Shown here: positions 5,197-31,510 of the stretch, one piece after another
Layout of the letters: the number at the start of each line of letters is the position of its first letter
How positions within the stretch are numbered: position 1 is the stretch's first letter
From: Nostoc sp. PCC 7120 = FACHB-418
GTDB taxonomy: Bacteria; Cyanobacteriota; Cyanobacteriia; Cyanobacteriales; Nostocaceae
Assembly: GCF_000009705.1 (NCBI RefSeq)
Contig: NC_003272.1
Span: 4,110,001-4,142,000 of the forward strand
Direction of reading: 5' to 3'
Length of the DNA: 32,000 bases
The notes under the pieces: model-generated
What the model was told of the DNA's origin: nothing
Database searches by the model: none
Seen by the model: only the letters and a program-made list of their open reading frames with translations
Position numbers and translations under genes: made by a program

Positions 5197-5248
5197 TCTT
5201 CTCTAATTTAGAGGGAGAATATTTTTACGAATATCTAGATGAAGACCT
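5197..5248 (+). repeat. Copy A of a ~51-bp direct repeat (ends in ATGAAGACCT)
   Basis: TCTTCTCTAATTTAGAGGGAGAATATTTTTACGAATATCTAGATGAAGACCT aligns with 6026-6076 at about 46 of 52 positions, with a 1-nt indel. Confidence 0.7.
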
Positions 5249-5358
5249 TTTCAGAAAAAAGATTATTCAGAAAGTTAGGAAAACTATCTGACTCAGAGAT
5301 GCAACTTGTTTCTCAAGTATTAGCGATTGTTTTAAATCTCGCTCACTCGTCAAATTAG
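5239..5358 (+). pseudogene. Internally deleted MazF/PemK-like toxin remnant (39 codons)
   Basis: The ORF reads MKT-FSEKRLFRKLGKLSDSEMQLVSQVLAIVLNLAHSSN. The tail has the C-terminal pattern of MazF/PemK/EndoA toxins (RL..K.G.LS...M..V..AL.I.L.L). The roughly 75-aa core is missing. Confidence 0.35.
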
Positions 5359-5429
5359 CGATCGCTTTTTTAACAACCTGCAAAGGGCGCAAATGGATAA
5401 AGAGAGCGATCGCATAGTAAACTACGATC

Positions 5430-5873
5430 TTATTGCTGCTGTTGCAACCAAGTTACCAAATCAGCTTCAGTAGAAAAATCTAGTAATGCTTCAGCTAAAT
5501 CTTCTAACTGAGTTAAAGATAATCCCTGCACTCGCTCTTGTAATTCAGGGGTAATATCACCAATTCGTCTTGTTAATTGACGCTGGATTACTTTCAATTC
5601 TCCTTGCTGTAGACCTTGTTGCAGCCCTTGTTGTATTCCTTCCTCCATCCAACTAGTGACGATCTGCATAACTACCTCTTGTTGAGTTGGTTCAAATTGT
5701 GCAATTTCAGCCTGGAAAATTTCTGTTTCTTGGGCGTTTAGGCGTAGGTAGGTGTCAATAAACCCAGAAATTAACTGCATTCGTGCTGGATCTAACTGCA
5801 AAGTAGCTAAAAGACGCAGACACTCAGATTTTACTCTGGGGCGGTCTTGTAGTGCTATGCTCATTTTAGCCAT
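5430..5873 (-). CDS. DUF4351 domain protein, probably a 5'-truncated remnant of an Rpn/DUF2887-type putative transposase-nuclease
   Basis: 147-aa ORF ending ...LKVIQRQLTRRIGDITPELQERVQGLSLTQLEDLAEALLDFSTEADLVTWLQQQQ, which is a typical DUF4351 C-terminus. The in-frame region upstream hits TGA 13 codons before the ATG. A KLIRLF reading sits in another frame, so the N-terminal nuclease-like half is absent or frameshifted. Confidence 0.65.
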   Translation of the reverse strand: MAKMSIALQDRPRVKSECLRLLATLQLDPARMQLISGFIDTYLRLNAQETEIFQAEIAQFEPTQQEVVMQIVTSWMEEGIQQGLQQGLQQGELKVIQRQLTRRIGDITPELQERVQGLSLTQLEDLAEALLDFSTEADLVTWLQQQQ

Positions 5874-6025
5874 CAGCGCACTAGCTACGGGATTTTGCTC
5901 CTCAAAATAGGCGAATCAGCTTTAGAACTTGTGCTTCAAGATAAAGACTCACTTACTAAAATACCAATTAGTGCCAGCCGCAATCACAGCTATTGCAGAC
6001 TACGCACCTAATAGCGGATTAAATC

Positions 6026-6076
6026 TCTTCTCTGATTTAGAAAGAGAAGATTTTACGAATATCCAGATGAAGACCT
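6026..6076 (+). repeat. Copy B of the ~51-bp direct repeat
   Basis: TCTTCTCTGATTTAGAAAGAGAAGATTTTACGAATATCCAGATGAAGACCT. See copy A at 5197-5248. Confidence 0.7.
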
Positions 6077-6132
6077 CCACAATTGAGAGCCTTATGTATA
6101 GAGGTGAAGTCTGGCTAGTAACTTTAGAATAA
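6067..6132 (+). pseudogene. N-terminal fragment of a MazF/PemK-like toxin (21 codons, then stop)
   Basis: The ORF reads MKTSTIESLMYRGEVWLVTLE*. RGEVWLV.L matches the RGD(I/V)W.V.L motif that opens MazF/PemK toxins. The reading frame then terminates. Confidence 0.3.
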
Positions 6133-6191
6133 ATTCTAATAAAAGAGATGAAAATCTACTTAATAATCAGGGGTTTCCGAGATTTTTTCTC

Positions 6192-6220
6192 TTGATAAGC
6201 CTATCTGAGCCTATTATAGA
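6192..6220 (+). promoter_or_regulatory. Candidate sigma70-type promoter for the ATPase-RloB operon
   Basis: TTGATA (6192-6197), a 17-nt spacer, then TATAGA (6215-6220), about 43 nt upstream of the ATG at 6263. Confidence 0.3.
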
Positions 6221-6262
6221 ATAAAGTGCAGTGTGAAATAGGACTTATTTGGGTGAAAGATA

Positions 6263-7654
6263 ATGCTAATTCAACTAACCATACAAAACTTTTTGTCTTT
6301 CAGAGATGAAGTTACATTCAGTATGCTAGGGGTTAGCAGTGACCAACAACACATAGATCATCTTGCTGAAAACGCGGCAGGAAAAGGTCGTTCTGTATTA
6401 CCTATTGCTGCCATTTATGGTGCAAATGCAGCAGGTAAATCAAATCTCATCAAGGCTCTCAATTTTGTCAAAGATTTAGTTGTAGAAGGTACTAGAAGCA
6501 ATAAACCTATTCTTGTTTCTCCATTTAAACTAGGTGATTATAGTAAACAGAAAAGTAAGTTTGAATTTATATTTACATATCAAGAATCTCAATATTCTTA
6601 TGGATTTACATTAAATAGAGAACAAATTTTCGAGGAATGGCTTTATGCTGTGCCTCGTAGTAAAAAAAAGGAAATTATGTACTTTGAACGCATCACTTCC
6701 TCAGAAAAAGAAACGATTTTAGAATATGGTTCAGCGCTTAAAGGTAAAACAGAGAAACGTCAACAAGTTTTAGAATTTATCGCAGAAGGAACTCGTCATA
6801 ATCAACTTTTTTTAACAGAAGCAGTTGACCGAAATGTTAAAACTTTACTTCCAGTTTTTAACTGGTTTAAAGAAGCACTAACTATCATTCCAGCAGAGGC
6901 AGAATACCAAGGATTAGAAGTTGGAATACTCAGTAATGAATCTTTTACAAATTTCCTCAGTGAATTTTTGAAATTTGCGGGGACAGGAATTGATTCAATA
7001 AGCACTGAAGAAGTTGATCTAGATTTTGAGCAACACTTTCCAACAATGCCTAAATCTATCACAGAGCGTTTGCTAGAAAAATTTGAAGAAGCAGACGATA
7101 ATTCGGTAGCAATGATAGTAAATACACGAGGTAAACGATATCTCCTTTTCAAGAATGAAGGCGATAGATTAAGATTGATTCAATTAAAAACTCAACATCG
7201 CCATGAAGATGGACATCTGATTGATTTTACAATTGAAGAAGAGTCAGAAGGAACTCAACGTTTGATTAATCTCATACCATCTTTATTTCTTTTACAAGAA
7301 GAATCTGAGAAAGTCGTTTTTTTAGATGAACTTGATAGACGCTTGCATCCTTTACTATCTCGTTGTTTTGTACAAACAGCAATAAATTGTAGAGGAAGAA
7401 ATAATCAATTAATCTTTACAACTCATGATACTAACTTACTCGATTTAGATTTGCTACGGCGTGATGAGATTTGGTTTGTTGAGAAGAACCAGCAGGGTGT
7501 GTCAAATCTTTATTCTTTAGCAGAATTCAAGATTAGACCCGACTTAAAAGTTGAGAAGGGTTACTTAAATGGTCGTTTTGGAGCTATTCCTTTCTTTGGA
7601 GATCCACAAAGTTTAGGGTGGTTCGATTGTGATACTGGTTTATCTGTAGGATGA
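6263..7654 (+). CDS. AAA15/AAA21-type ABC ATPase (AbiLi / AriA / OLD-ATPase-like)
   Basis: 463 aa. It has Walker A GANAAGKS (aa 53-60, nt 6419-6442), a signature-like SEGTQRLINL (from aa 328), Walker B VVFLDELD (D355/E356, nt 7325-7330), and an H-loop FTTHD (H388). The N-terminal MLIQLTIQNFLSFRD is typical of SMC/RecF-like ABC ATPases. Confidence 0.85.
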   Translation: MLIQLTIQNFLSFRDEVTFSMLGVSSDQQHIDHLAENAAGKGRSVLPIAAIYGANAAGKSNLIKALNFVKDLVVEGTRSNKPILVSPFKLGDYSKQKSKFEFIFTYQESQYSYGFTLNREQIFEEWLYAVPRSKKKEIMYFERITSSEKETILEYGSALKGKTEKRQQVLEFIAEGTRHNQLFLTEAVDRNVKTLLPVFNWFKEALTIIPAEAEYQGLEVGILSNESFTNFLSEFLKFAGTGIDSISTEEVDLDFEQHFPTMPKSITERLLEKFEEADDNSVAMIVNTRGKRYLLFKNEGDRLRLIQLKTQHRHEDGHLIDFTIEEESEGTQRLINLIPSLFLLQEESEKVVFLDELDRRLHPLLSRCFVQTAINCRGRNNQLIFTTHDTNLLDLDLLRRDEIWFVEKNQQGVSNLYSLAEFKIRPDLKVEKGYLNGRFGAIPFFGDPQSLGWFDCDTGLSVG

Positions 7655-7664
7655 GTCGCAAGTC

Positions 7665-8270
7665 ATGAGAAGAATCAATCGAACTAAACTATTAGATCGT
7701 CAGCATGATCGAAGAGATGCAAAGCTTTTCATAGTTGCTACTGAGGGTAAAGAGACAGAAAAGCAATATTTTGGAATGTTCCATAGTACCCGAATCAAGA
7801 TAGAAGTTCTGGCTACTGGGGATGATGGTAAATCTGCTCCCCAATATGTGCTAGAACGACTGAATACCTTTAAAGATAACTATGATTTAAATGAGGAAGA
7901 TATGCTTTGGCTTGTTCTTGATGTAGACAGATGGGGTGAAAATAATTTAAGTTTAGTGTGTCGTGAAGCCAAGCAAAAAAATTATTATTTAGCTATCAGC
8001 AATCCATGTTTTGAAATTTGGTTATATTTACATTTTGATGATTTAAACTCCCAAGATAGAACTTGTAATGATTTTAAGACAAAGCTACGAAAGATTTTAG
8101 GAAGTTATAACAGTAGCAATCTAGATTTATCTGTATACAAACCTAATATTACAAATGCAACAAATCGTGCAAAATTATTGCACCCCAACTCTCAACAAAA
8201 CTGGCCTCCAGAATTAGGAACACACGTATATAGGCTAGTTGAAATTATTCTCCAGAGCTTGAATAATTGA
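7665..8270 (+). CDS. RloB-like (Toprim-related) protein, predicted nuclease partner of the upstream ATPase
   Basis: 201 aa. It has FIVATEGKETEKQYF (Toprim Glu E27, nt 7743-7745), WLVLDVDRW (DxD, D86/D88, nt 7920-7928), and ISNPCFEIWLYLHF, all hallmarks of the RloB family. It starts 10 nt after the ATPase stop. Confidence 0.85.
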   Translation: MRRINRTKLLDRQHDRRDAKLFIVATEGKETEKQYFGMFHSTRIKIEVLATGDDGKSAPQYVLERLNTFKDNYDLNEEDMLWLVLDVDRWGENNLSLVCREAKQKNYYLAISNPCFEIWLYLHFDDLNSQDRTCNDFKTKLRKILGSYNSSNLDLSVYKPNITNATNRAKLLHPNSQQNWPPELGTHVYRLVEIILQSLNN

Positions 8271-8286
8271 TTTCAGAATAAAACAC

Positions 8287-8308
8287 AAAAAAAATGCCTC
8301 GGAAGCAT
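8287..8308 (-). terminator. Candidate intrinsic terminator of pntB
   Basis: On the minus strand the sequence is ATGCTTCCGAGGCAT followed by T8. The stem is short (4 bp, ATGC/GCAT) but the U-tract is strong. It lies about 45 nt downstream of the pntB stop. Confidence 0.3.
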
Positions 8309-8351
8309 CACACCCCCAAGGCAAGTAAACCTAGAAATTATTCTTAATTCC

Positions 8352-25101: not shown

Positions 25102-25473
25102 ATGAGCCTTAACAATTCTCAATTAAATCTTTTAAACTTCCGCCCTTGGCTAACGCTGTTAGCAATTGCTTGGTTACTAGCTTCCTTGGGTTTAGGCTGG
25201 TTAGTAAATTCCTTGTTGATTATAGTGGGATTGTTGTTTCTAGCGCCTGTTGTGGCGTTTTTTGGGTTTCGCTGGTGGCTGGAACGCAATTTAGTCTCTG
25301 ATCAATGTCCCGTCTGTGGTTACGAATTTACGGGTTTAAATAATAGTCAGTTGCAATGTCCTAATTGCGGAGAAAACTTAACTGTACAAAAAGGTCATTT
25401 TCAACGCTTTGCCCCAGAAGGGACAATTGATGTCACAGCAATTGAAGTTCCATCCCAACGCTTGGAAGAATAA
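25102..25473 (+). CDS. Hypothetical membrane protein with a C-terminal zinc ribbon
   Basis: 123 aa with two TM helices followed by CPVCG...CPNCG. Coding is supported by its length and position. I do not recognise a family name. Confidence 0.55.
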   Translation: MSLNNSQLNLLNFRPWLTLLAIAWLLASLGLGWLVNSLLIIVGLLFLAPVVAFFGFRWWLERNLVSDQCPVCGYEFTGLNNSQLQCPNCGENLTVQKGHFQRFAPEGTIDVTAIEVPSQRLEE

Positions 25474-30577: not shown

Positions 30578-31510
30578 TTAACTACTTAGTAGATTGTTGA
30601 GATATTTTGGGTTAAGGGTGTTGTGCCATGTCCACAGGCGGCGCATGGTTTGGGTTGATGTGTAGATGAGGGTGGCTTTGTTGGTGAGTGTCCAGGCGTT
30701 CCAGTTAAGTGTATTCATCATGCGGCGTAGGGTTCGCATGAGGTTGTTACGTTGATAGGTTTGGGAACGGGTTTTGATGAGGGTGCGCCCTACTCGGATT
30801 AGTCCTGTGTCAGGAAAAGCCCAAACTCCAAAGCCCCAGAATTTGGTCATGTGGTTGATTTCGTCTTTCGTGAGTTCTTCGAGAACTTCTTGGAGTGCGC
30901 CTGTTGTGTGCGCCATTAGCCACAGGTAAAGGCAGGTTGCACCGTATTCTGTGGCTACGCGGTGTAAGCCGTGGCGATAGAGGTCTTCTTGGGGGTCATT
31001 TGTGGGGAGGTAGCCTCTGATTGTACGATGTTTAGGGGTGATTTTCTCCCCTGTTAATTGGGTGTAGATTTTGATTAATGCGGGTGTGTGTTGACGTTCT
31101 TCTTTTTCCCACAAACCAAGTTCTTGGAGTTCGCCATCTCCATCGACTGTTCCACCGACAAACCGCGCCATCTGGGGATGTAACTTTTCTAAATATTGCC
31201 GACTGGTTTGGGTGTAGCCTCGAATGGGGGCTTCTGTGTCCATTGCACCGATCAATATAGATAAAAATACTTCTGGTTCTATACCGATAATTTGGTTGCG
31301 GTTAATGGCTTGCCAGTCAATTAGTTTCCAGGGACGCGCTTGGGGATTGGCAAATTGTATCGGTAAATCTTGCAAGCGAGCGCGTAGTATTTCGACTGCA
31401 ATATATTTATCTATGAGGGAGCGAATACGGCTCTGTGTTTGCCAGTAGTGAGGATGAGCATAGCTTTGTGCCGCCGATGCTTCTAGTTGTGGGCTGGTGG
31501 TATCAAGCAT
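30578..31510 (-). CDS. Ferritin-like diiron-carboxylate protein resembling soluble acyl-ACP desaturases
   Basis: 310 aa with ligand pattern E93 ... W-EK-EERQH (E138/H141) ... E188 ... DEINH (E217/H220). This mirrors the desaturase pattern E..W..EENRH..E..DEKRH in spacing. It ends 24 nt upstream of uppS on the same strand. Confidence 0.55.
   Translation of the reverse strand: MLDTTSPQLEASAAQSYAHPHYWQTQSRIRSLIDKYIAVEILRARLQDLPIQFANPQARPWKLIDWQAINRNQIIGIEPEVFLSILIGAMDTEAPIRGYTQTSRQYLEKLHPQMARFVGGTVDGDGELQELGLWEKEERQHTPALIKIYTQLTGEKITPKHRTIRGYLPTNDPQEDLYRHGLHRVATEYGATCLYLWLMAHTTGALQEVLEELTKDEINHMTKFWGFGVWAFPDTGLIRVGRTLIKTRSQTYQRNNLMRTLRRMMNTLNWNAWTLTNKATLIYTSTQTMRRLWTWHNTLNPKYLNNLLSS

What the first reader, a model, noticed from the sequence alone, without database searches (positions are those of the whole stretch)
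6263..8270. Two-gene AAA15-type ABC ATPase + RloB/Toprim operon: candidate split-OLD (AbiL/PARIS-like) anti-phage system in a cyanobacterial chromosome
Seen in the sequence: a 463-aa ORF carries a complete ABC-ATPase motif set. This comprises Walker A GANAAGKS (nt 6419-6442), signature-like SEGTQR (from aa 328), Walker B VVFLDE (D355/E356, nt 7325-7330), and H-loop TTHD (H388). After a 10-nt gap comes a 201-aa ORF with RloB/Toprim hallmarks: ATEGKETEKQYF (E27), LDVD (D86/D88), and SNPCFEIWLYLHF. There is one promoter-like element upstream (6192-6220) and no internal terminator, so the two genes look like an operon. Established knowledge: an ATPase plus a Toprim domain is the OLD-family nuclease architecture. 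The two are fused in P2 Old and Gabija GajA. They are split in PARIS (AriA/AriB) and in lactococcal AbiL (AbiLi/AbiLii). RloB was first named as a restriction-linked ORF in Campylobacter type I R-M loci. Inference: the ATPase acts as a sensor or scaffold that controls a small Toprim effector nuclease, giving abortive-infection-type immunity. The trigger, the target (DNA, or tRNA as reported for PARIS AriB), and any role against cyanophages are all unknown. The pair stands alone here, with no R-M or other defence genes nearby. This is the best candidate in the window for an uncharacterised system.
Basis: partly seen in the sequence, partly recalled or inferred. Interest (0 to 1): 0.8.

Follow-up and report, generated by a model that had tools for sequence, protein, structure and literature searches.

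The report
AbiL-type ATPase plus RloB nuclease pair
This is a real, intact two-gene module in a Nostoc/Anabaena chromosome (an ABC ATPase followed by a small RloB nuclease-like protein) that belongs to the long-known AbiL family of anti-phage abortive-infection systems, so it is an ordinary member of a known kind whose mechanism is still unsolved.

Summary
ORF 6263-7654 (463 aa) is an ABC ATPase (Pfam AAA_21, 2e-53). ORF 7665-8270 (201 aa), 10 nt downstream, is an RloB protein (PF13707, 2e-39). PADLOC's own AbiLi and AbiLii models hit at 8.6e-90 and 2.1e-24, so standard defence finders would call this AbiL. The two proteins are BAB75105.1 and BAB75106.1 (Nostocaceae), and UniRef already names the second one 'Abortive phage resistance protein'.

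The pair is a conserved two-gene unit:
- In 72 of 73 loci from many phyla, the ATPase lies directly upstream of the RloB gene.
- The divergence of the two proteins co-varies (r=0.96).
- Both genes are under purifying selection (dN/dS about 0.18).
- All catalytic-type residues are invariant.
- There is no conserved third gene and no link to R-M genes.

The pair sits in a low-GC patch among housekeeping genes.

The most likely mechanism is that the ATPase holds a toxic Toprim-type nuclease in check and releases it on infection. This is inferred by analogy with PARIS and P2 Old and from published toxicity data. My own structure and profile tests of the Toprim link were inconclusive.

Verdict: a new member of a known kind, of low to moderate interest.

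The parts
6263..7654 (+). abiLi-like gene: 463-aa Rad50/SMC-type ABC ATPase (BAB75105.1)
   Evidence: ORF. Pfam AAA_21 2e-53 and AAA_15 3.7e-9. PADLOC AbiLi 8.6e-90. AF2 model pLDDT 84, matching Rad50, SMC and PtuA heads at E down to 5e-13. Exact-sequence accession.
6419..6442 (+). Walker A / P-loop, GANAAGKS (K59)
   Evidence: Sequence. G53, N55, G58 and K59 are invariant in 37 homologues.
6890..7237 (+). Insertion between the two ABC half-domains (about aa 210-325), modelled as a mixed alpha/beta module rather than a coiled coil
   Evidence: AF2 secondary structure: E243-252, H264-276, E282-286, E292-297, E303-313, E319-323. A sensor or partner-binding role is inference only.
7244..7261 (+). 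ABC signature-like motif, SEGTQR (S328-R333)
   Evidence: E327, S328 and G330 invariant; R333 at least 90% conserved.
7313..7330 (+). Walker B, VVFLDE (D355/E356)
   Evidence: D355 and E356 invariant. The region aligns to the P2 Old ATPase by hhalign (probability 84%, E=7.9e-6).
7418..7429 (+). H-loop, TTHD (H388)
   Evidence: T387 and H388 invariant.
7562..7591 (+). Conserved C-terminal tail motif, Y434-L-N-G-R-F-G-A-I-P443
   Evidence: Y434 and R438 are invariant in the 37 diverse homologues, and G437, G440 and P443 are at least 90% conserved there. The motif is present in 62 of 68 full-length partner ATPases and in no other ORF of the loci. The region has low model confidence (pLDDT below 50 for residues 424-448). 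Its function is unknown.
7655..7664 (+). 10-nt intergenic spacer; no terminator between the genes
   Evidence: In homologous loci, as called by the longest ORF, the gap runs from a few tens of nt down to overlaps, several of them 4-nt ATGA-type. This is consistent with co-translation.
7665..8270 (+). abiLii-like gene: 201-aa RloB-family, Toprim-like putative nuclease (BAB75106.1)
   Evidence: ORF. Pfam RloB 2e-39. PADLOC AbiLii 2.1e-24. AF2 model pLDDT 89.6, pTM 0.87. 100% identical to a protein named 'RloB family protein' / 'Abortive phage resistance protein'.
7737..7772 (+). Toprim-type glutamate motif, ATE27GKETEKQYF, immediately after beta-1
   Evidence: E27, Y35 and F36 invariant. Beta-1 spans residues 20-26 in the model. 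The best local hhalign match to the P2 Old 'VLLVEGKTE' motif is not significant, E=0.02-0.08.
7920..7928 (+). DxD motif, D86-V-D88, at the C-terminal end of beta-3
   Evidence: D86 and D88 invariant, as is D79. Beta-3 spans residues 80-86. The E-to-DxD spacing is 59 residues, against 55 in P2 Old.
7998..8036 (+). Family signature block, SNPCFEIWLYLHF (aa 112-124), after beta-4
   Evidence: S112, P114, C115, F116, W119 and H123 invariant; N113 and E117 at least 90% conserved. A role in metal or substrate binding is inferred.
6040..6262 (+). Upstream non-coding region, conserved with the syntenic Nostoc copy, containing a -10-like TATTAT (6212-6217)
Evidence: Alignment with L084. The promoter scan gives no site here.
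6000..8300 (.). Low-GC patch (about 34% against about 45% in the flanks; GC3 0.21-0.25 against 0.36-0.48)
   Evidence: Composition profile and per-gene GC3. Consistent with horizontal origin.
8295..8323 (-). Strong hairpin with a T-run on the minus strand (terminator of convergent pntB), 25 nt past the RloB stop. It may also stop the pair's transcript, but no T-run follows it on the + strand.
   Evidence: 13 pairs, 6 GC, T8 tail on the - strand. Sequence.

Best explanation
The locus is an AbiL-type, two-gene anti-phage / toxin-antitoxin-like module carried as an accessory, horizontally derived insert in a Nostoc/Anabaena chromosome.

Shown:
- Gene 1 encodes a Rad50/SMC-type ABC ATPase with a complete, conserved nucleotide-binding motif set.
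- Gene 2 encodes a small RloB protein with an invariant Glu after beta-1 and an invariant DxD after beta-3.
- The two genes are co-oriented, almost contiguous, co-inherited across phyla, co-evolving, and under purifying selection.

Inferred mechanism:
- The two proteins are made from one transcript.
- The ATPase oligomerises and binds the RloB nuclease, keeping it inactive. The family-specific alpha/beta insertion or the conserved C-terminal Y-x2-GRFG-x-IP tail may be involved.
- A phage-derived cue, either a protein or an aberrant nucleic-acid structure, is sensed by the ATPase. ATP binding or hydrolysis then changes the assembly and frees or activates the nuclease.
- The metal-dependent Toprim-type site (E27, D86, D88, probably with D79 and E117) then cleaves a host nucleic acid. 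This is most likely tRNA or another RNA needed for translation.
- The infected cell is arrested before phage progeny are released (abortive infection).

My confidence differs by step. That this is an AbiL-family defence-type module: about 0.85. The sequester-and-release logic: about 0.5. An RNA/tRNA target: about 0.35.
For: Family assignment:
- PADLOC AbiLi 8.6e-90 and AbiLii 2.1e-24.
- Pfam AAA_21 2e-53 and RloB 2e-39.

Module integrity:
- 72 of 73 loci across Cyanobacteria, Desulfobacterota, Gammaproteobacteria, Planctomycetota, Bacteroidota and others have the ATPase directly upstream on the same strand.
- Identity co-variation is r=0.96 over 63 pairs. dN/dS is 0.17 and 0.19.
- There is no conserved third gene.

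Catalytic competence:
- All ABC motifs and the E/DxD residues are invariant.
- Model topology puts E27 right after beta-1 and the DxD at the end of beta-3. This is the Toprim arrangement described for RloB in PMC12065111.
- The ATPase fold matches Rad50/SMC heads and the defence ATPase PtuA. Its C-terminal ABC half aligns to P2 Old.

Accessory and mobile character:
- Low GC and GC3.
- Homologous pairs occur on 51-174 plasmid records, many of them about 5 kb and mobilizable.
- Relatives carry the pair at different chromosomal sites.

Published function of relatives:
- Lactococcal AbiL gives abortive phage resistance, acting 'after transcription' (Deng 1999, as tabulated in PMC13064643).
- Fusobacterium AbiLii is toxic in E. 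coli (PMC3985639).
- A Clostridium RloB-node:AAA pair was validated as a toxin-antitoxin pair (PMC10440598, Fig. 6B).
- PARIS AriA sequesters AriB and releases it to cut tRNA (PMC11464382, PMC10802264).
- P2 Old is reported to be a tRNase (bioRxiv 10.64898/2026.07.10.737580).
Against: - There is no experimental data for this locus or for any cyanobacterial member.
- My independent tests of the Toprim link were not significant. Foldseek against the PDB found no hit at E<=1e-3; topoisomerase II and RecR Toprim proteins appeared only at E about 0.09. A profile search against PDB sequences found nothing. hhalign against an Old profile matched only the Glu motif, at E=0.02-0.08.
- Published antitoxin evidence is mixed. 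Fusobacterium AbiLi did not neutralise AbiLii in trans, and L. lactis AbiLii was not toxic in E. coli (PMC3985639).
- The ATPase lacks AriA-like coiled-coil arms in the model, and AriA was not among the top 50 structural matches. PARIS-style architecture therefore cannot be assumed. The PARIS authors themselves say that AbiL, RloAB and a Nostoc pair look structurally distinct from PARIS (PMC10802264).
- Defence-island association of homologues is weak. Only about 10% of immediate neighbours hit defence models.
- The pair is nearly absent from phage genomes.
- Other Toprim nucleases of this superfamily cut DNA in vitro (PMC10568477), so the target is open.
Confidence: 0.6

Rival explanations
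1. Same family, different effector logic. The RloB nuclease acts directly on phage or host DNA by nicking or exonucleolytic degradation, as reported in vitro for Class 1 and 2 OLD/GajA enzymes. The ATPase acts as a DNA-binding clamp or sensor rather than as an antitoxin that sequesters a tRNase.
For: - The ATPase fold is closest to the DNA-binding Rad50/SMC heads.
- Toprim domains classically catalyse DNA phosphoryl transfer, and OLD Class 1 and 2 proteins show DNase activity in vitro (PMC10568477, PMC12392090).
- Fusobacterium AbiLi did not behave as an antitoxin in trans (PMC3985639).
Against: - The two best-understood split or related systems (PARIS AriB; P2 Old in the 2026 preprint) cleave tRNA in vivo (PMC11464382; 10.64898/2026.07.10.737580).
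- Lactococcal AbiL is tabulated as acting after phage transcription (PMC13064643). That fits a translation block better than DNA destruction.
- A Clostridium RloB:AAA pair did behave as a toxin-antitoxin pair (PMC10440598).
Confidence: 0.22
2. A selfish toxin-antitoxin / addiction module whose main role is to stabilise the DNA that carries it (plasmids, islands), with no dedicated anti-phage role in this host.
For: - Homologous pairs are the main cargo of many about 5 kb mobilizable plasmids.
- Relatives have been validated as toxin-antitoxin pairs (PMC10440598).
- Here the pair stands alone among housekeeping genes, outside any defence island.
- Neighbours of homologues are only rarely defence genes.
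Against: - The founding member gives phage resistance (Deng 1999, via PMC13064643).
- ABC-ATPase plus nuclease pairs are recurrently antiviral (PMC11464382).
- The chromosomal copy is retained under purifying selection at the same site in two Nostoc lineages, where plasmid-style addiction offers no obvious benefit.
- The two roles are not mutually exclusive.
Confidence: 0.12
3. An R-M-linked sentinel, like Campylobacter RloAB or PARIS, that fires when a phage anti-restriction protein (Ocr/Arn-like DNA mimic) disables the host's restriction systems.
For: - RloB was named from type I R-M loci.
- PARIS, the nearest mechanistically solved analogue, senses Ocr (PMC10802264, PMC11464382).
Against: - There are no hsdR/M/S or other R-M genes in the 32 kb window.
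- No R-M family appears among the commonest families in the immediate neighbours of 73 homologous pairs.
- The effector is not DUF4435/AriB.
- The ATPase insertion is not AriA-like in the model.
Confidence: 0.05
4. A housekeeping DNA-repair pair analogous to RecF (SMC-like ABC ATPase) plus RecR (Toprim protein).
For: The architectures are formally parallel. RecR (3vdp) appears among the weak structural matches, at E about 0.09.
Against: - Distribution is patchy and phylogenetically scattered, and includes plasmids.
- Composition is foreign.
- The genomic position varies between relatives.
- Relatives are toxic (PMC3985639, PMC10440598).
- The specific PADLOC AbiL models match.
Confidence: 0.01

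Closest known systems
AbiL (AbiLi/AbiLii) of Lactococcus lactis plasmid pND861, as modelled in PADLOC
   Same: - Two co-oriented genes, ATPase first.
- Both PADLOC models hit (8.6e-90 and 2.1e-24).
- Same Pfam families (AAA_21/AAA_15 plus RloB).
- The effector is of similar size: 201 aa here, against about 206 aa quoted for AbiLii in PMC13064643.
   Different: - The host is a filamentous cyanobacterium and the location is chromosomal, not a lactococcal plasmid.
- No phenotype is known here.
- I could not retrieve the lactococcal sequences for a direct pairwise comparison, so closeness to the founding member rests on the PADLOC profiles.
PARIS (AriA/AriB; Class 4 OLD-like)
   Same: The architecture is split: an ABC ATPase plus a separate small Toprim-type effector. 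It probably works as a toxin-antitoxin-like sensor and effector pair.
   Different: - The effector family differs. It is RloB, 201 aa, not DUF4435/AriB (about 35 kDa); there is no AriB or DUF4435 hit.
- The ATPase insertion is modelled as an alpha/beta module, not AriA's coiled-coil arms.
- AriA was not among the top 50 structural matches.
- The trigger is unknown.
- The PARIS authors regard AbiL-type systems as structurally distinct (PMC10802264).
OLD-family nucleases (P2 Old, Class 1; GajA, Class 2; retron-associated, Class 3)
   Same: - ABC ATPase plus Toprim logic.
- The ATPase signature, Walker B and H-loop region aligns to P2 Old (probability 84%).
- The 'hhhhEGxxTE' and 'hhhDxD' motifs and their spacing resemble Old's.
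   Different: - The two domains are separate polypeptides here.
- RloB is not detectably homologous to the Old Toprim domain at significance in my tests.
- There is no helicase or retron partner.
Campylobacter RloA/RloB (restriction-linked ORFs)
   Same: The same Pfam family for the small protein (RloB), paired with an ATPase.
   Different: It is not embedded in or adjacent to a type I R-M locus, either here or in the homologous loci surveyed.
NetFlax AAA(D29):RloB-like(D44) toxin-antitoxin pair from Clostridium algidicarnis; Fusobacterium nucleatum AbiLii
   Same: The same domain pairing. These are the only relatives with direct toxicity or neutralisation data (PMC10440598, PMC3985639).
   Different: Sequence relationship to the window proteins was not measured here. 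Results in the two studies disagree on whether the ATPase neutralises the toxin.
Septu PtuA / retron Ec78 PtuA, and MADS mad3-mad4
   Same: - The ATPase fold matches PtuA structures at about 1e-10.
- mad3 also hits the window ATPase weakly (4e-11).
- mad4 (DUF4276) is the other small Toprim family named alongside RloB (PMC12065111).
   Different: The partner effectors differ: HNH in Septu and DUF4276 in MADS. MADS is a multi-gene methylation-associated system.

Membership tests
AbiL (PADLOC definition) | AbiLi-type ABC ATPase | tested here: met
   PADLOC PDLC02335 AbiLi 8.6e-90, 299 bits. Pfam AAA_21 2e-53.
AbiL (PADLOC definition) | AbiLii-type RloB protein | tested here: met
   PADLOC PDLC02337 AbiLii 2.1e-24. 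Pfam PF13707 2e-39, covering 1-194 of 195 profile positions.
AbiL (PADLOC definition) | The two genes adjacent and co-oriented, ATPase first | tested here: met
   10-nt gap, same strand. The same arrangement is found in 72 of 73 loci elsewhere.
AbiL (PADLOC definition) | Direct sequence similarity to the founding L. lactis AbiLi/AbiLii proteins | not tested
   The lactococcal sequences were not retrievable. No Lactococcus record appeared among the listed plasmid hits.
AbiL (PADLOC definition) | Abortive-infection phage resistance phenotype | not testable with these tools
   Needs phage challenge. It is known only for the lactococcal system (Deng 1999, via PMC13064643).
Toprim superfamily (for the RloB protein) | Conserved glutamate in the loop after beta-1 | tested here: met
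   E27 is invariant in 38 sequences at 33-76% identity. Beta-1 spans residues 20-26 in the model.
Toprim superfamily (for the RloB protein) | Conserved DxD after beta-3 | tested here: met
   D86 and D88 are invariant. Beta-3 spans residues 80-86.
Toprim superfamily (for the RloB protein) | Significant structural similarity to a solved Toprim domain | tested here: inconclusive
Toprim superfamily (for the RloB protein) | Profile-level sequence similarity to a bona fide Toprim family | tested here: inconclusive
   hhalign of the RloB profile against P2 Old finds nothing. Against a 6-sequence Old profile, the best local match is the Glu motif, at E=0.083 or 0.019. The Old profile was shallow. A permissive Pfam scan finds only RloB.
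PARIS (AriA/AriB) | Effector of the AriB / DUF4435 Toprim family (about 35 kDa) | tested here: not met
   The effector is 201 aa. It has no PADLOC AriB hit and no Pfam DUF4435 hit, even at E<=10.
PARIS (AriA/AriB) | AriA-specific ATPase with coiled-coil arms forming a propeller hexamer | tested here: inconclusive
   The PADLOC 'AriA' hits PDLC02980 and PDLC02979 have the same lengths and coordinates as Pfam AAA_21 and AAA_15, so they are generic. The monomer model shows an alpha/beta insertion, not a coiled coil. The oligomeric state is not predictable here.
OLD-family nuclease, Classes 1-3 | ATPase and Toprim domains fused in one polypeptide | tested here: not met
   Two separate ORFs, each with its own start and stop codon.
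OLD-family nuclease, Classes 1-3 | ABC ATPase related to the OLD ATPase domain | tested here: met
   hhalign of the ATPase profile against P2 Old: probability 84%, E=7.9e-6, over the signature to H-loop region.
RloAB (restriction-linked ORFs) | Located within or next to a type I R-M (hsd) locus | tested here: not met
   There are no R-M genes in the window. No R-M family is among the commonest in 125 neighbours of homologous pairs.
Type II toxin-antitoxin (AAA antitoxin : RloB toxin) | Effector toxic alone and neutralised by the ATPase | not testable with these tools
   Published for one relative (PMC10440598, Fig. 6B) and contradicted for another (PMC3985639).

The most novel reading that the evidence does not exclude
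AbiL-type systems could be a mechanistically separate branch of ABC-ATPase/Toprim immunity rather than a 'mini-PARIS'.
- The ATPase would use a family-specific alpha/beta insertion (about aa 210-325) as its sensor, in place of AriA's coiled-coil receptor.
- An almost universally conserved but structurally unassigned C-terminal tail (Y434-x2-G-R-F-G-x-I-P443, in 62 of 68 partners) would grip or plug the RloB active site.
- The RloB effector, whose fold has no significant match to any solved structure, would have a target and activation mode of its own.

The Nostoc sp. PCC 7120 copy would then be a genetically tractable chromosomal model with known cyanophages.
Probability: 0.3. Interest if true: 0.5.

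Novelty: new member of a known kind. Interest (0 to 1): 0.28.

Why it matters
AbiL has been known since 1999 and is widespread. RloB relatives fall into about 4,600 clusters at 50% identity, and the partner ATPase has at least 7,900 relatives. Yet its trigger, target and assembly are still unknown, and no RloB-family structure is solved.

This copy sits in a model cyanobacterium that has genetics and isolated cyanophages, so it is a reasonable place to test how this branch of ABC-ATPase/Toprim immunity works. It is also a place to ask what such systems do in cyanobacteria. Nothing about the locus itself is surprising to a specialist, because routine defence-finder software already labels it.

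Tried and rejected
1. Structural confirmation of Toprim. Foldseek of a confident RloB model found no significant hit against the PDB. Against BFVD the only hit was another RloB protein.
2. Sequence-profile link to solved structures. phmmer and hmmsearch against PDB sequences found nothing.
3. Profile-profile link to OLD. I fetched P2 Old and gathered Old homologues from viral contigs. hhalign matched only the Glu motif, and not significantly. A forced global alignment was meaningless.
4. PARIS membership. Rejected, because the effector family differs and the 'AriA' PADLOC hits are generic Pfam-equivalent models.
5. R-M linkage (RloAB reading). Rejected from the window and from 125 neighbour ORFs.
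6. Defence-island association. It is weak, with only a minority of neighbours hitting mad3, mad8, DpdF or BrxL.
7. An RNA hairpin bracketing the ATPase stop and the RloB start (7614-7629 / 7676-7691) as a translational-coupling device. The fold z-score is -1.38, and the arms are just conserved coding sequence. Not supported.
8. The sigma-70 promoter at 6192-6220. It is not called by the scan, and the -35 is not conserved.
9. An empty-site comparison. All contigs sharing the identical small pnt subunit are the same strain-level neighbourhood, so the insertion boundaries remain undefined. No convincing flanking repeats bracket the pair.
10. Literature on guessed locus tags (alr3404-alr3407). No papers. 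Makarova 2011 and Krishnan 2020 were not available. I therefore could not check whether the 'unnamed two-gene system in Nostoc sp.' cited by PMC10802264 and PMC13064643 is this locus.
11. NCBIfam. No model matches either protein.

Full report
**Observation.**

Every motif coordinate I checked is correct.
- In the ATPase: Walker A GANAAGKS at nt 6419-6442 (K59), SEGTQR from S328, Walker B VVFLDE with D355/E356, and TTHD with H388.
- In the small protein: ATE27GKETEKQYF, LD86VD88 and SNPCFEIWLYLHF.

Pfam gives AAA_21 2e-53, AAA_15 3.7e-9 and RloB 2e-39, the last covering 194 of 195 profile positions. NCBIfam has no model for either protein.

The promoter claim is the weakest part. TTGATA-17-TATAGA does not meet the scan's criteria, and promoter-like sites are not enriched in the region. 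When the upstream region is aligned with the syntenic copy in another Nostoc, a TATTAT box at 6212-6217 is conserved but the TTGATA is not. No terminator lies between the genes. The strong hairpin at 8295-8323 belongs to the convergent pntB gene.

**Where the window comes from, and its existing annotation.**

The two proteins are identical to BAB75105.1 and BAB75106.1. They are found on a 6,413,771-bp contig and labelled 'MULTISPECIES … [Nostocaceae]'. NCBI calls them 'AAA family ATPase / ATP/GTP-binding protein' and 'RloB family protein'. UniRef calls the second 'Abortive phage resistance protein'. From my own knowledge, BAB accessions and that contig length point to Nostoc (Anabaena) sp. PCC 7120. 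From an accession offset I guess the locus tags are alr3406/alr3407, but this is unverified, and a literature search on those tags found nothing.

**What it is.**

PADLOC's dedicated models hit both proteins: AbiLi 8.6e-90 and AbiLii 2.1e-24. The PADLOC 'AriA' hits (PDLC02980 and PDLC02979) have the same profile lengths and match coordinates as Pfam AAA_21 and AAA_15. They are generic and do not indicate PARIS. The small protein hits no AriB or DUF4435 model, even in a permissive scan. By the criteria that defence-finding software uses, this is an AbiL system.

**Is the pair a real unit?**

I scanned one genome per species with an RloB alignment and obtained 80 loci at 33-76% identity. They come from Cyanobacteria, Desulfobacterota, Gammaproteobacteria, Magnetococcales, Planctomycetota, Chloroflexota, Bacteroidota and others.
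- Of the 73 loci with at least 1.4 kb upstream, 72 have a homologue of the window's ATPase directly upstream on the same strand.
- With starts called by the longest ORF, several pairs show a 4-nt overlap.
- Identities of the two proteins to the window pair fall together (r=0.96, 63 pairs).
- Against the syntenic Nostoc copy, dN/dS is 0.17 for the ATPase and 0.19 for RloB.

The 125 immediate neighbours are heterogeneous. There is no conserved third gene and no R-M enrichment. Only a minority hit defence models: mad3 7, mad8 5, DpdF 2 and BrxL 1.

The family is large. There are 4,639 representatives at 50% identity with E<=1e-3, 2,948 RloB clusters at 90% identity, and at least 7,928 ATPase relatives. 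Pairs also occur on plasmids, with 51 records for RloB and 174 for the ATPase. Many of these are mobilizable replicons of about 5 kb in Klebsiella, Enterobacter or Acinetobacter, and one record labels the ATPase abiLI. The pair is rare in phages: 2 of 50,697 phage records and 20 of 2.9 million viral contigs.

**Genomic setting.**

The pair lies in a low-GC patch, about 34% against about 45%, with GC3 of 0.21-0.25 against 0.36-0.48 for the neighbours. On the left are ndk, a TerC-family gene and a DUF4351 fragment. On the right are pntB, pntA, rpmH-rnpA-yidC and, further on, petB/petD, rplT and uppS. No defence or R-M gene turned up anywhere in the window, though two ORFs have no Pfam match.

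A Nostoc sp. with 82-85% identical proteins carries the pair at the same site next to pntB, again preceded by a DUF4351 fragment, but its left flank is different. Anabaena sp. PCC 7108 (62%) carries the pair elsewhere. The pair's dS against that Nostoc copy (0.44-0.52) is about half that of the flanking housekeeping genes (0.75-1.43). Either the pair was exchanged after the lineages split, or its extreme AT bias depresses the estimate. I could not find an empty site or flanking repeats that bracket the pair.

**Anatomy of the proteins.**

The ATPase model (pLDDT 84, pTM 0.81) matches Rad50 and SMC head domains and the defence ATPase PtuA, at E from 5e-13 to 1e-9. AriA was not in the top 50. 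Its C-terminal ABC half aligns to P2 Old (hhalign probability 84%, E=7.9e-6).

Between the two ABC halves, at about aa 210-325, the model shows a mixed alpha/beta module rather than a coiled coil. The last 40 or so residues carry a motif, Y434-x2-G-R-F-G-x-I-P443. It is conserved in 62 of 68 full-length partners and absent from all other ORFs, but it is modelled with low confidence.

The RloB model is confident (pLDDT 89.6, pTM 0.87). It has a beta-alpha-beta-alpha-beta-alpha-beta core followed by helices. E27 sits right after beta-1, and D86-x-D88 sits at the end of beta-3. Those residues, together with D79, S112, P114, C115, F116, W119 and H123, are invariant over 38 diverse sequences.

**Is RloB a Toprim domain?**

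My own tests did not reach significance.
- Foldseek against the PDB found no hit at E<=1e-3. Toprim-containing topoisomerase II and RecR appeared only at E about 0.09.
- Foldseek against BFVD found only another RloB protein.
- Profile and single-sequence searches against PDB sequences found nothing.
- hhalign against P2 Old, and against a shallow Old profile that I built from viral contigs, picked out exactly the Glu motif (RloB 23-36 against Old 394-407), but at E=0.02-0.08.
- The E-to-DxD spacing is similar, 59 residues against 55.

I therefore record the two defining residues as met, and the fold and profile similarity as inconclusive.

**Mechanism.**

These points are shown: an intact, conserved, co-evolving ATPase plus RloB operon with complete catalytic-type motifs.

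The proposed mechanism is inferred. The ATPase restrains a toxic metal-dependent nuclease. It senses an infection cue, and through ATP binding or hydrolysis it releases or activates the nuclease. Cleavage of a host nucleic acid then aborts the infection. The support is indirect:
- Lactococcal AbiL confers abortive resistance, acting after phage transcription (PMC13064643, citing Deng 1999).
- Fusobacterium AbiLii is toxic in E. coli (PMC3985639).
- A Clostridium RloB-node:AAA pair behaved as a toxin-antitoxin pair (PMC10440598).
- PARIS works by sequestration and release of a tRNase (PMC10802264, PMC11464382).
- P2 Old is reported as a tRNase (bioRxiv 10.64898/2026.07.10.737580).

There is also evidence against a simple transfer of the PARIS model.
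- Fusobacterium AbiLi gave no antitoxicity in trans, and L. lactis AbiLii was not toxic in E. coli (PMC3985639).
- The ATPase insertion is unlike AriA's.
- The PARIS authors state that AbiL, RloAB and 'an unnamed two-gene system in Nostoc sp.' look structurally distinct (PMC10802264). I could not read Makarova 2011 to see whether that Nostoc pair is this one.

A DNA target remains a live alternative (PMC10568477).

**Comparison, novelty and score.**

The locus works like the ABC-ATPase plus Toprim systems. By the available criteria it is a member of AbiL. It is not a member of PARIS, because the effector family was tested and does not match. It is not a member of fused OLD Classes 1-3, and it is not an R-M-embedded RloAB.

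It is a new, uncharacterised member of a known kind, already flagged by public annotation. Its value is as a tractable entry point to an unsolved family, and that value is modest. Interest: 0.28.

Noticed in passing
window 5430-5873 (-), with repeats at 5223-5248 and 6051-6076: A 147-aa DUF4351-only ORF (Pfam 5.5e-25) sits just upstream of the pair. It is bracketed by a 26-nt direct repeat (96% identical, 828 nt apart). A DUF4351 fragment also precedes the pair in the syntenic Nostoc locus L084. It may be a remnant of an Rpn/YhgA-like recombination nuclease or transposase that travelled with, or targeted, this site.
   Followed up: partly
window 6263-8270 compared with L084 6598-8606 and flanks: Synonymous divergence of the pair (dS 0.44 and 0.52) is about half that of the adjacent pntB, pntA, DUF2808 and yidC genes (0.75-1.43). 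GC3 is 0.21-0.25 against 0.32-0.48. Either the pair was exchanged between Nostoc lineages at the same site after they split, or AT-biased codon use deflates dS.
   Followed up: partly
window 7562-7591 (ATPase aa 434-443): A conserved C-terminal tail motif, Y-x2-G-[RK]-[FYW]-G-x-[IVL]-P, is present in 62 of 68 RloB-partnered ATPases and in no other ORF of the 80 loci. It is modelled with pLDDT below 50. It could be a partner-binding or auto-inhibitory peptide.
   Followed up: partly
PADLOC models PDLC02980 / PDLC02979 ('AriA'): These models have the same profile lengths and match coordinates as Pfam AAA_21 (304) and AAA_15 (373/374). An 'AriA' hit from them is generic and should not be read as evidence for PARIS.
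   Followed up: partly
plasmid hits H9-H27, H51-H72 (e.g. NC_016979.1, NZ_CP026748.1): Many mobilizable plasmids of about 5 kb in Klebsiella, Enterobacter, E. coli and Acinetobacter carry an ATPase+RloB pair, which must account for much of their coding capacity. One record (AP022428.1) labels the ATPase abiLI.
   Followed up: no
neighbours of homologous pairs in L004-L083: Seven immediate neighbours hit PADLOC mad3 (best 8.7e-93) and five hit mad8. Some RloB pairs therefore sit beside MADS-type systems, which have their own ATPase plus small Toprim (DUF4276) pair. I did not identify which loci these are.
   Followed up: no
window 5349-5425: A cluster of HIP1-type GCGATCGC palindromes (5358-5365, 5405-5412), typical of cyanobacterial genomes, lies in the spacer between the TerC-family gene and the DUF4351 fragment.
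   Followed up: no
window 7614-7629 / 7676-7691: An inverted repeat brackets the ATPase stop and the RloB start. The RNA fold is not better than shuffles (z=-1.38), and both arms are conserved coding sequence.
   Followed up: yes
L036 1517-4024: In a Planctomycetaceae MAG the ATPase ORF is 836 aa, against about 460 elsewhere. This is either an N-terminal fusion or a start-codon artefact of calling the longest ORF.
   Followed up: no
window 25102-25473 (+) and 30578-31510 (-): Two ORFs, of 123 aa and 310 aa, have no Pfam match at E<=1e-3. They lie among housekeeping genes.
   Followed up: no
L023, L044, L020, L035, L052, L027: Several homologous loci carry degraded copies: a truncated RloB gene, or a split or fragmentary ATPase gene. 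The module is therefore sometimes lost by decay.
   Followed up: no
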